This document shows, piece by piece, positions 10,372 to 31,424 of a stretch of 64,000 nt of DNA (positions are counted from its first letter, which is position 1; each line of letters opens with the position of its first letter). The translations under genes and the position numbers were made by a program. The stretch is from Octopus vulgaris (Eukaryota), in the NCBI GenBank assembly GCA_951406725.2, contig OX597815.1, positions 20,026,001-20,090,000 on the forward strand, written 5' to 3'. Under the pieces are notes generated by a model. The model searched no databases. It saw nothing but the letters and a program-made list of their open reading frames with translations, and had not been told where the DNA came from.

Positions 10372-10515
10372 ATATATGTGTGTGATATATATATATATAT
10401 ATATATTAATAGTAATGGTATGACAACAAAAGAATGAATGAGATCTTGATATTATGTAAATAGAGGAGTTTATCTGCAATATGATGTGACAGTTATTCGG
10501 ACATCACAATATAAG

Positions 10516-10662
10516 TCCGAGTTTCGGATGTCGGGGCGGAAATCTGCTCCGGCATCTCGTCAGTTATTAAGACAAACAAAACTGCATTTCTGTTTGTCTT
10601 AATAACTGACGAGATGCCGAAGCAGATTTCTGCCCCGACATCCCAAACTCGGAGTTTTATTA
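10516..10662. repeat. About 63-bp-arm fold-back containing two opposed hammerhead-like motifs (PLE-type inverted terminal repeat)
   Basis: 10516-10578 is the near-perfect reverse complement of 10591-10653; CTGACGA gatg...catc (C/G)AAAC on each arm. Confidence 0.8.
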
Positions 10663-10697
10663 TGGCAACCGTATAATTGTCGCATATTATATTACAT

Positions 10698-11024: not shown

Positions 11025-11172
11025 GCGAAAAATACCTTAGGAATGAGAGCCCAGGTTCGAAATTTCCCCCAAGACACCTGAAGAAGGCTGGAGGATAAAT
11101 CAGCCGAAACGTTGTGTTAACAGCAAACAAGATGAGGACAATTATCCGTCAAATGTAAATAATGTAAATAAT
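10889..11172 (+). mobile_element. tRNA-headed SINE-like element with internal (AAT)n and a 3' hammerhead ribozyme
   Basis: A-box TGGCGTAGTGG 10890-10900; B-box-like ATTTCGATTCC 10934-10944; (AAT)n 10958-11020; HHR 11074-11117; tail (AATGTAAAT)2. Confidence 0.7.
11074..11117 (+). ncRNA. Type I hammerhead ribozyme (canonical core)
   Basis: acac CTGAAGA a ggctg-gaggataaat-cagcc GAAAC GTT gtgt: perfect stem I (acac/gtgt), 5-bp stem II, palindromic stem III, GUU cleavage triplet. Confidence 0.85.
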
Positions 11173-11872: not shown

Positions 11873-11951
11873 CTATATATATACATATATATATAAGAAA
11901 TTAAAAAAGGAAAATACGTACACTTTACATAGTTTTAATATAATTTTTAAT

Positions 11952-11986
11952 ATATCGACCGGTTTCGCTATCACTATTCATGATAT
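11952..11986 (-). ncRNA. Minimal hammerhead motif, A3:U8 core variant (left inverted repeat)
   Basis: Minus strand atatc ATGAATA gt-gata-gc GAAAC cg GTC gatat. Confidence 0.6.
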
Positions 11987-13176
11987 TATGTTTTACTTAT
12001 TTGAATATGTATTTTCTGAAGAAGACAATTCTAGACATCCTACTGAAACCCTTGCTGAAATACGTCAAAAGTTTCATTAGAGATGGTTTAAACATACTAG
12101 AATACCTACCAAAAACAATTAATGAAGAGGCAATATTGGTTACCCTCGATGTTATCAATCTTTACACCAACATCCCCCATGACTATGGAATAAAAGCAAT
12201 TAAATTCTTGTTGGAAAAGTACCCTGAATCACTCCCGGAACGCATAACTCAGATCTTTATTATTGAATCTTTAAAATTTATACTTCAGAATAATTATATC
12301 CTATTTGATAACCCAAACTATCGTCAGAACTGCGGAATCGCGATGCAAACGAAAGCAGCACCTGCTCTTGCGAACATAATAATGGGTTATTTTGAATTGA
12401 CCTTATATGAAGTATCACTTCAGAAATATGGTTACCCATTTTATCTCTACATAAGAGAAAATTGGAAAAGATACCTGGATGACTGTTTTATCATTTGGAA
12501 GGAGAACATCGACAAACTTTTGGATTTCAAATCAACACTAAATAAATAATAACATTCAATTCACAATGGAATATAACAAAGGACAACTCCATTTTTAGAC
12601 ATGATAAAAAAAAGTCAACAATCAAATCAGAACTGACATCTATTATAAACCAACTGATTCAAAACAATATCTCCTCTTTAACTCATGCCACCCGAATCTC
12701 ATCAAAATAAATATTCCTTACAATTTGGCAAAAAGGATTTGCACAAAAGTGTCTGATAGAACAACTCGGGATCTTCGTCTTCAAGACCTCAAAACAACGC
12801 TTACTGAAAGACAATATCCACCCTCACTTATCGACGAAGGAATTAAGCGTGCCAAACAATTAGACATAAAAACACTAAGAACAACAAAACATAACACCAC
12901 ACCTCATCTCAGAACATTACTATTTATATCAACACACAACCCCAGAAACAGTGAGGCATTCAACACTATTCTGCAAAATCTTCCTTTACTAACTAGAGAT
13001 TCAAAAATGAACAACATCCTGAAAACACACAAACTCATCAAAGAATAACAATAATAACGATATCCAATTACCTCCCCTTATTTTTCTACTTGTGAAATCA
13101 TTCACTTGTAAATATCATCACTCACAACATGGACAAAATTTCTTAAGAAAATACATATTCAAGTAAGTAAACCATA

Positions 13177-13211
13177 ATATCATGAATAGCGATAGCGAAA
13201 CCGGTCGATAT
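13177..13211 (+). ncRNA. Minimal hammerhead motif, A3:U8 core variant (right terminal repeat)
   Basis: atatc ATGAATA gc-gata-gc GAAAC cg GTC gatat; perfect 5-bp stem I, palindromic ACCGGT stem III, GUC triplet. Confidence 0.65.
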
Positions 13212-13611
13212 ATTAAAAATTATATTAAACCTATGTAAAGTGTATGTATTTTCCTTTTTTAATTTCTTATATATATTACAAATCACCACGTGGGGGTCAT
13301 CGTAATTCCTCCTTTCTGTTACTACTTATATATATATATATGTGTGTATGTGTGTGTGTGTGTGTGTGTGTGTCTGTGTCTCTGTGTGTGTGTCTGTGTA
13401 TATGTGTGTATATATATATATGTATATATGTATATATGTATGTACGTATGTATGTATTTATATTATAATAATGATATAATTATGACAAGGGATTGGCATT
13501 ATACCTCTTCTCTCGCTGAAAATAGACGCCAAATGACGCCAACACAACTTTATATATGTCAGTGTGTGTGTGTATGTGTGTGTGTGTATGTGTGTGTGTG
13601 TATGTGTGTGT

Positions 13612-30299: not shown

Positions 30300-31330
30300 A
30301 GGAAAAAATAATAGTAATAAGGCAGAACGCTAAACTGAAATCAAATTTTAATATAAATGGGTGTAAGAAAGATTAAAAAGGATTTCAAACTGGCTTTCAT
30401 TGCATGGCAAATTTTCAAGATAAGAAAGGGGAATAAATAATGTTTTTTTTTCAAAAAAATAATAAATATGTACAAAAATAAATAAATAAATAGTGGCTGT
30501 GTGGTAAGTAGCTTGCTAACCAACCACATAGATACGGGTTCATCCCACTGCGTGGCACCTTGGGCAAGTGTCTTCTACTATAGCCTCGGGCCGACCAATA
30601 CCTTGTGAGTAGATTTGGTAGACGGAAACTGAAAGAAGCCTGTCGTATATATGTATATATATATATATATTATGTGTGTGTGTGTGTGTGTGTCTGTGTT
30701 TGTCTCCCTAGCATTGCTTGACAACCGATGCTGGTGTGTCTACGTCCCCGTCACTTAGCGGTTCGGCAAAAGAGAGACCGATAGAATAAGTACTGGGCTT
30801 ACAAAGAATAAGTCCCGGGGTCGATTTGCCCGACTAAAGGCTGTGCTCCAGCATGGCCGCAGTCAAATGACTGAAACAAGTAAAAGAGAAAAGAGAAAGA
30901 GTAATACATTATAGTGTCTTTAAGCTTTTAAAGTTCTATAGTATTCCATGGAAAAACTTGTTTGAAGGATTAGGATGCATGTGTTTCAGTGTAGTATTTT
31001 GTTCGAGAAGGTTGGGTGTTTATGTGTCAAACAGGAAATGGGGTAGGAGCTATTCAGTTCATGTGAATAAAGGGAGACAATTCTGTGGGATTTATACTCT
31101 TTAATTGGGGTGCTGGATTTTTTTGTCAATAAGATGCTTATGTCTGTTCTTAGAAATACAAGTAACAAATATATATATTAGGTAGGCTAGAGTTTGTGGA
31201 GTTTAAGAAGCGTTTGGAACTTTTCAATAACAAGATTCTCTTTGCTGATTCTTTCTTGTGGAGAGATTCTGTCTTTACATTGATATGAAACGAATATAAG
31301 AAATTTGGGATTTTTATTTCTAGCGCAAGA
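30300..31330 (-). mobile_element. Probable PLE 3' relic, interrupted by SINE B
   Basis: Minus-strand ISKNRHKHLI resembles the SKCRH-type PLE C-terminus; HHR-like motif at 30382-30423 lies downstream on the same strand. Confidence 0.35.
30492..30902 (+). mobile_element. SINE family B (CORE-like)
   Basis: GTGGCTGTGTGGTAAG...CACCTTGGGCAAGTGTCTT...GACTGAAACAAGTAAAAGAG. Confidence 0.9.
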
Positions 31331-31331
31331 G

Positions 31332-31424
<93 letters not shown>

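What the first reader, a model, noticed from the sequence alone, without database searches (positions are those of the whole stretch)
11952..13211. Penelope terminal repeats encode a hammerhead with a natural A3:U8 core
Seen: both inverted repeats read atatc AUGAAUA g(c/u)-gaua-gc GAAAC cg GUC gauau. Relative to CUGANGA only positions 3 and 8 differ, and they remain complementary. Established: C3 and G8 form a Watson-Crick pair in the active hammerhead fold. Inference: compensatory change under selection for activity, giving an ultra-minimal 35-nt variant physically linked to a recognisable PLE RT.
Basis: partly seen in the sequence, partly recalled or inferred. Interest (0 to 1): 0.8.

Follow-up and report, generated by a model that had tools for sequence, protein, structure and literature searches.

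The report
Penelope hammerheads with flipped A-U core
A family of Penelope-like jumping genes carries, in hundreds of genomic copies, a tiny RNA motif shaped like a hammerhead self-cutting RNA in which a core base pair that is normally C-G is A-U (and U-A in sister families); it likely still cuts when two copies pair up, but cutting is untested, and the broken copy in this window is probably a silent fossil.

Summary
Observation confirmed. Both 137-bp inverted arms hold the 35-nt motif (13177-13211 +, 11952-11986 -). A3:U8 is the family state, not decay: 299 exact copies, no C3:G8 copy in that context. Of 1,280 matches to a pattern left open at positions 3 and 8, 781 are A:U and 440 U:A. The host is an RT + GIY-YIG Penelope-like element with a Neptune/Nematis-type linker; this copy is frameshifted and lacks the endonuclease. 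Across related families, stem I covaries, stem III stays palindromic, and the 3:8 pair flips between A:U and U:A at least twice. Closest outside relatives have C3:G8, and one distant element also has A3:U8. The right-arm homodimer folds as a double hammerhead. Caveats: the left arm is an inverted duplicate that would sequester the motif here; minimal Penelope hammerheads, U3-A8 cores and 2-bp stem II are published; a mutational scan found non-G:C swaps poorly active. I found no natural A3:U8 in the readable papers, but the most relevant survey (Lünse 2017) was not held. The scan earlier noted U3-A8 and G3-C8 variants in other genomes, none A3-U8 among the 8 notes shown. Verdict: new variant of a known kind.

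The parts
13177..13211 (+). Minimal type I hammerhead motif, A3:U8 core, 2-bp stem II, palindromic stem III; predicted cut between 13206 and 13207
   Evidence: homodimer MFE is the double-hammerhead fold, -15.3 kcal/mol
11952..11986 (-). Second copy of the motif in the inverted duplicate; its C-to-U change in stem II is predicted to favour a competing hairpin over the core
11887..12030 (-). Inverted, truncated duplicate of the element's 3' end, joined to the 5' truncation point; ends in a TA run and lacks the tail
12029..13042 (+). 5'-truncated, frameshifted PLE ORF remnant (RT core, thumb and part of the linker; aa 136-475 of family copy L154, 91% DNA identity)
13041..13043 (+). Deletion junction: about 620 nt missing against family copies (Cys linker, GIY-YIG domain, start of 3' UTR)
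   Evidence: contigs of three runs leave the window sequence at 13042 (table 7)
13043..13276 (+). 3' UTR / pseudo-LTR of the element, containing the hammerhead
13277..13326 (+). Optional 3' tail, present in 16 of 30 sampled family copies, followed by (TA)n

Best explanation
The motif is the 3' pseudo-LTR hammerhead of a Penelope-like retrotransposon family whose core pair is A3:U8; in the active element it likely cut its own RNA as a strand-swapped dimer, probably with help from the element's protein, while the copy in this window is likely an inactive fossil. Shown: sequence, family state, host element, and covariation across families. Predicted: two motifs pair through the self-complementary ACCGGU to make a 6-bp stem III and intermolecular stems I, leaving both cores free, with the cut after GUC (13206/13207). 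Inferred from known hammerhead chemistry: the 3:8 pair only has to place the ribose of nucleotide 8, so any Watson-Crick pair can serve at some cost in rate. Inferred route: C:G to U:A, possibly through U-G, then U:A to A:U or back at least twice. Inferred role: trimming the element's RNA out of tandem or read-through transcripts.
For: Family state: 299 exact copies; only 3 matches with another base at 3 (none C3:G8) and 5 with another base at 8. Open pattern: 781 A:U + 440 U:A of 1,280, 59 other. U:A carriers are related PLEs at 55-69% protein identity. Trees put A:U family A with U:A families D and G (SH-aLRT 100) apart from A:U family B; one A:U clade is rejected, p-AU 0.003. In 133 outside loci a scan blind to 3:8 gave 17 distinct motifs, 17 of 17 Watson-Crick: 12 C:G, 3 U:A, 1 A:U, 1 G:C, with 0.1 hit per shuffle round. 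L211 and L224 have the same ultra-minimal layout with C3:G8. In 21 chosen motifs all 6 stem I pairs change on both sides, and G10.1-C11.1, A15.1-U16.1, U4, G5, A6, A9, G12, A13, A14 are invariant. Stem III palindromes are 6, 8 and 10 nt long. Full-length relatives carry two same-strand motifs (L141, L143, L145, L347, L211). Dimer need and low solo activity of PLE hammerheads: PMC4209133; protein-assisted cleavage: PMC11167929.
Against: No cleavage or expression data. A comprehensive double-mutant scan of one type III hammerhead found only the G:C swap rescued; all other double mutants there had low activity (PMC9901934). In the anole PLE, hammerhead mutants did not affect insertion in vitro and no reads ended at the cut site. 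Copy counts are not independent events: the 1,221 concordant copies come from two lineages. Discordant states exist: U3-G8 in L103 and L110, A3-C8 in two family-B copies (L181, L189), U inserted in GAAA in some B copies, and U-U next to the core in a family-C subgroup. Only 11 of 22 representative motifs fold as a double hammerhead at MFE, with no shuffle control. No full-length family-A copy with two same-strand motifs around an ORF was seen. The AU test used LG+G4 and a group named after a first tree was seen.
Confidence: 0.65

Rival explanations
1. The fold is kept for a non-catalytic job (RNA dimerisation, or a binding site for the element's protein during reverse transcription); the A:U and U:A cores cut too slowly to matter.
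For: Low activity of non-G:C swaps; hammerhead cleavage not needed for insertion in vitro; no C3:G8 motif among the 52 tree rows of this genome's clade; drifting cores in family B and C subgroups.
Against: G5, G12, A13, A14 and a non-G position 17 are kept in all 21 aligned motifs, and the 3:8 pair is a contact of the active fold (PMC3884650), so pairing there points to catalysis.
Confidence: 0.2
2. The motif cuts as a monomer, with the protein or an unseen tertiary contact holding the 2-bp stem III.
For: PAc hammerhead cleavage needs the protein; monomer topology can be drawn with A15.1-U16.1 and C-G around a 2-nt loop.
Against: Stem III stays palindromic at four different sequences; monomer MFE misfolds the core; loop II varies freely between subfamilies.
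Confidence: 0.08
3. A3:U8 is a neutral relic: two AT-biased changes in one master copy that were then amplified.
For: Copies inherit the state; the genome and the 3' UTR are AT-rich; family A is older (flank identity 90% against 97% for U:A family D).
Against: At least two A:U/U:A flips in this genome, an independent A3:U8 in L243, 17 of 17 Watson-Crick states outside, and two-sided stem I changes among A:U subfamilies.
Confidence: 0.07

Closest known systems
Minimal hammerheads of metazoan Penelope-like elements (Cervera and De la Pena 2014, PMC4209133; main text parts 1-2 of 4 and supplement parts 1-2 of 3 read)
   Same: Type I topology, place in the pLTR, palindromic or minimal stem III, presumed dimer activity, G10.1-C11.1; an opposite-strand second copy at the 5' end is described (Fig. 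S4A legend); a U3-A8 core is reported in Schistosoma mansoni PLEs.
   Different: A3:U8: none of the 56 aligned representatives begins with A3. Stem II is 2 bp rather than mostly 4-8, and there is no bulged base after A9.
Natural core variants in Perreault et al. 2011 (PMC3088659; section 8 and passages read)
   Same: Natural 3:8 covariation (U3-A8), 2-bp stems II, weak stems III, and a U13a insertion like that in some family-B copies.
   Different: A3-U8 is not mentioned in the section read; supplements not read.
PAc (Poseidon) hammerhead of Anolis (PMC11167929; passages read)
   Same: PLE pLTR hammerhead; the 3:8 pair was tested by single and double mutants; tail and AT-rich targets.
   Different: Canonical C3:G8, another PLE clade, and activity was measured.
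Small PLE-associated hammerheads that cleave as dimers (Lünse, Weinberg, Breaker 2017; not held, seen only as a citation in PMC6765202)
   Same: By title and by the review's passage: short stem III, PLE-linked, dimer cleavage.
   Different: Unknown. It may already contain A3-U8 rows; I could not check.
Neptune/Nematis-type EN+ PLEs (Craig et al. 2021, PMC8557442; passages read)
   Same: RT then C-terminal GIY-YIG, CX2-5CxxC linker, inverted 5'-truncated copy, optional tail, microsatellite targets, 3' hammerhead.
   Different: Canonical hammerheads are stated for these clades; the clade was not fixed here against reference sequences.

Membership tests
Hammerhead ribozyme (type I) | Core U4 G5 A6, A9, G12 A13 A14, A15.1-U16.1, H17 with three stems | tested here: met
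Hammerhead ribozyme (type I) | Watson-Crick pair between positions 3 and 8 | tested here: met
   A:U here; covaries with U:A and C:G
Hammerhead ribozyme (type I) | Site-specific self-cleavage | not testable with these tools
   needs an assay; only contigs were available
Canonical hammerhead descriptor / Rfam models | Literal CUGANGA and a match to an Rfam hammerhead model | tested here: not met
   AUGAAUA; no Rfam hammerhead hit at E<=10. Filed as a variant, not as a canonical member.
Extended (tertiary-stabilised) hammerheads | Conserved loop II / stem I bulge contact | tested here: inconclusive
   loop II varies among subfamilies and no conserved partner was seen; no 3D test
PLE minimal hammerheads | Located in the pLTR / 3' end of a PLE | tested here: met
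   about 250-330 nt behind the GIY-YIG end in most family-A copies
PLE minimal hammerheads | Palindromic short stem III allowing a dimer | tested here: met
   ACCGGU; homodimer MFE is a double hammerhead
PLE minimal hammerheads | Two same-strand copies in a full-length or tandem element | tested here: inconclusive
   seen in families C and D and in L211; not seen in the family-A loci fetched
EN+ Penelope-like element | RT followed by C-terminal GIY-YIG | tested here: met
   family copy L154: RVT_1 E 1e-6 (just under the curated cut-off), GIY-YIG E 2e-6 (over it); deleted in the window copy
EN+ Penelope-like element | 5' truncation with inverted duplicate, optional tail, microsatellite target | tested here: met
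   described
Neptune/Nematis clades | CX2-5CxxC linker between RT and EN | tested here: met
   C-x4-C-x2-C in family copies
Neptune/Nematis clades | RT phylogeny against named reference elements | not tested
   no named reference PLE proteins were in hand

The most novel reading that the evidence does not exclude
The first natural, lineage-wide A3:U8 hammerhead: a whole Penelope clade has given up C3:G8 and flips this catalytic pair between U:A and A:U, running a deliberately weak 35-nt ribozyme that cuts only when two RNAs and the element's own protein meet. With C:G, U:A, A:U and one G:C case, all four Watson-Crick states occur in PLE hammerheads, giving a natural series for how a core pair crosses a fitness valley.
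Probability: 0.35. Interest if true: 0.62.

Novelty: new variant of a known kind. Interest (0 to 1): 0.42.

Why it matters
It widens the known natural core of the best-studied ribozyme to a pair that one complete mutational scan scored as poorly active. It shows that CUGANGA-based and Rfam searches miss over a thousand motifs in one genome. And it supplies matched natural variants (C:G, U-G, U:A, A:U on nearly the same 35-nt scaffold) to test what PLE hammerheads are for, which is still open. It does not change the class of element or the chemistry.

Tried and rejected
Rfam: no hammerhead match. Expression: no RNA holder listed, and all runs were contigs, so no cut ends could be seen; contigs of three runs under other organism codes cover the motif and list no difference at 13182 or 13187, but the table is cut and a missing row proves nothing. 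Decay from CUGANGA: rejected. The two arms as a cis dimer: rejected, they are on opposite strands and predicted to form a duplex. In 60 loci checked, the 5 distinct close motif pairs were all inverted. Two same-strand family-A pairs (L344, L345) had no full ORF between them. Dispersed C3:G8 motifs as an in-genome outgroup: no PLE protein hit in any of the 33 loci tested. The first IQ-TREE run timed out and the careful mixture tree did not finish, so the quick tree is cited. Literature searches for A3U8, A3-U8, C3A, G8U, AUGA, octopus and cephalopod with hammerhead gave no paper reporting a natural A3-U8; two-letter terms cannot be searched and figures are not held. Not held: Lünse 2017, Przybilski and Hammann 2007, Nelson and Uhlenbeck 2008a and b, Martick and Scott 2006, and one further review id; one search returned an unrelated paper. 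One supplementary file of PMC4209133 could not be searched, and supplements of PMC3088659, PMC8557442 and PMC9901934 were not read; they may bear on novelty and on the measured A:U activity.

Full report
Observation. The window holds two inverted arms, 11887-12023 and 13140-13276, 137 nt and 96% complementary. The predicted cut on the + strand lies between 13206 and 13207. A scan that does not constrain positions 3 and 8 finds these two motifs and one canonical motif at 11077 in the 64 kb, against 3 hits in 50 shuffled windows. Rfam does not see them.

Host element. Between the arms lies a broken ORF: 12029-13042 matches family copy L154 at 91% DNA identity (aa 136-475 of its 635-aa frame), with a frame change near 12540-12610 and about 620 nt deleted at 13042. 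Family copies show what is missing: a C-x4-C-x2-C linker and a GIY-YIG domain. L154 matches Pfam RVT_1 and GIY-YIG. The named nearest proteins include bivalve ones at 45-46% identity. The left arm is an inverted duplicate of the 3' end at the truncation point, without the roughly 50-nt tail that the right arm and 16 of 30 sampled copies have; both ends abut TA runs. This is the arrangement described for EN+ PLEs (PMC8557442 passages; PMC4209133 Fig. S4A legend). The linker points to the Neptune/Nematis type; I did not test the clade against reference sequences.

Is A3:U8 the family state? Yes. The 31-nt motif has 299 exact matches in G000, control 0. In the same context 3 matches have another base at position 3 (two G, one U, all with U8) and 5 have another base at 8. 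A looser pattern, open at 3, 7 and 8, gives 1,280 matches: 781 A3:U8, 440 U3:A8, 59 other by subtraction; none of the first 100 listed is C3:G8. These counts are copies, not events.

Is the change compensatory? The U3:A8 carriers are related PLEs. Reading the motif behind each endonuclease gave: family A (window) and family B with A3:U8; families C, D and E with U3:A8; family G with U3:A8 in 2 of 3 decayed copies; and a U3-G8 subgroup of C (L103, L110). Three trees agree that A groups with U:A family D (and G where included) and not with B (SH-aLRT 100 in the last two). A single A:U clade is rejected at p-AU 0.003 (12 rows against 9, LG+G4, group named after the first tree). So the pair flipped between A:U and U:A at least twice; the direction is not fixed. 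For the tree I dropped 9 rows that were duplicates or whose motif call was doubtful, and rows under 100 aligned residues. Outside this genome, 133 loci with related RTs gave 17 distinct motifs in a scan blind to 3:8, and all 17 are Watson-Crick: 12 C:G, 3 U:A, 1 A:U, 1 G:C (0.1 hit per shuffle round). The nearest ones (L211, L224, L214, L219) are C3:G8, and L211 and L224 share the 2-bp stem II and ACCGGU layout, so the small size is older than the A:U pair. L243, a PLE at 32% identity, has A3:U8 about 80 nt behind its stop and is sister to U3:A8 L240; it is a single contig. In 21 motifs that I chose as subfamily representatives (leaving out D, G, the U-G and A-C cases and long variants), all six stem I pairs change on both sides, 86.5% of stem I cells pair, and the covariation score is 0.62 against 0.18 in shuffles and at most 0.13 in slid controls; relatedness and my choice of rows inflate this. 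Stem III occurs as palindromes of 6, 8 and 10 nt.

Mechanism. The homodimer MFE of the right-arm motif is exactly the double hammerhead: 6-bp stem III, intermolecular stems I, both cores unpaired, 8 kcal/mol better than two monomers, whose MFE misfolds the core. Of 22 representative motifs 11 fold this way; no shuffle control was run. Full-length relatives have same-strand motifs at both ends (L141, L143, L145, L347, L211), which would supply the partner; I saw none for family A among the loci fetched. Published PLE hammerheads are inactive as monomers and weak as dimers, and one needs its protein. The C3-G8 pair is a feature of the active fold (PMC3884650 passages); that the 2'-OH of nucleotide 8 matters for catalysis is in the abstract listing of PMC11300833; that base identity is therefore secondary is my inference. 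At this locus the motif is likely silent: on either strand its complement is transcribed first and the predicted fold buries it in the long duplex, and the left copy's C-to-U change favours a competing hairpin. Family A is older than U:A family D (flank identity 90%, n=28, against 97%, n=14), and D still has open 753-782-aa frames.

Against. Nothing here shows cleavage or transcription. In the all-double-mutant scan of PMC9901934 only the G:C swap rescued this pair (passages), so A3:U8 may be slow. Hammerhead mutants did not impair PLE insertion in vitro. Some subgroups carry imperfect cores: A3-C8 in L181 and L189, a U inserted in GAAA in L171, L182 and L186, an extra A in family D, and U-U next to the core in part of family C.

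Comparison and novelty. It works like a PLE minimal hammerhead and meets every structural test except the literal CUGANGA. Natural U3-A8 is known, as are 2-bp stems II. None of the 56 motifs aligned in PMC4209133 Fig. S3 has A3, and nine searches of the held library found no natural A3-U8. The large 2017 survey of small PLE hammerheads and the 2007-2008 mutant studies were not held, so priority is uncertain. Earlier notes of this scan list U3-A8 and G3-C8 variants elsewhere, none A3-U8 among 8 shown, and no look-alike stretch.

Verdict. Real, family-wide and under apparent selection for pairing; a new variant of a known kind; interest 0.42.

Noticed in passing
window 11071-11115 (+): A canonical C3:G8 minimal hammerhead 850 bp from the finding; its family has 2,487 pattern matches genome-wide, control 0. 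The host element was not identified.
   Followed up: partly
L141-L146, L159, L160 (G000): Young PLE family D with open 753-782-aa frames, U3:A8 core, an extra A in GAAA and a GUU triplet; an upstream frame of about 367 aa has no Pfam match at cut-off.
   Followed up: partly
L171, L181, L182, L186, L189: Family-B subgroups with a U inserted in GAAA, a 10-nt stem III palindrome, and A3-C8 in two copies.
   Followed up: partly
L103, L110: U3-G8 wobble subgroup of family C, a possible intermediate state.
   Followed up: partly
L031-L048; L053-L079: Tandem 359-360-bp retrozyme-like arrays with C3:G8 hammerheads, and related long-stem motifs with U3:A8.
   Followed up: no
L191-L210, L046, L049, L050: Dispersed C3:G8 motifs that all differ from each other, with no PLE protein hit nearby; stem I is often poor, so they are probably old relics.
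   Followed up: partly
L264:111-157: G3:C8 hammerhead-like motif upstream of a distant PLE RT in a metagenome contig; weak stem I.
   Followed up: no
window 31196-31333 (-): Short GIY-YIG C-terminal fragment of another PLE, its 3' UTR cut off before any hammerhead.
   Followed up: partly
window 10479-10690: 106-bp palindrome with no spacer, 84% complementary.
   Followed up: no
L291-L343: PLE-type RT genes sit on contigs of several prokaryotic genome bins, probably host DNA.
   Followed up: no
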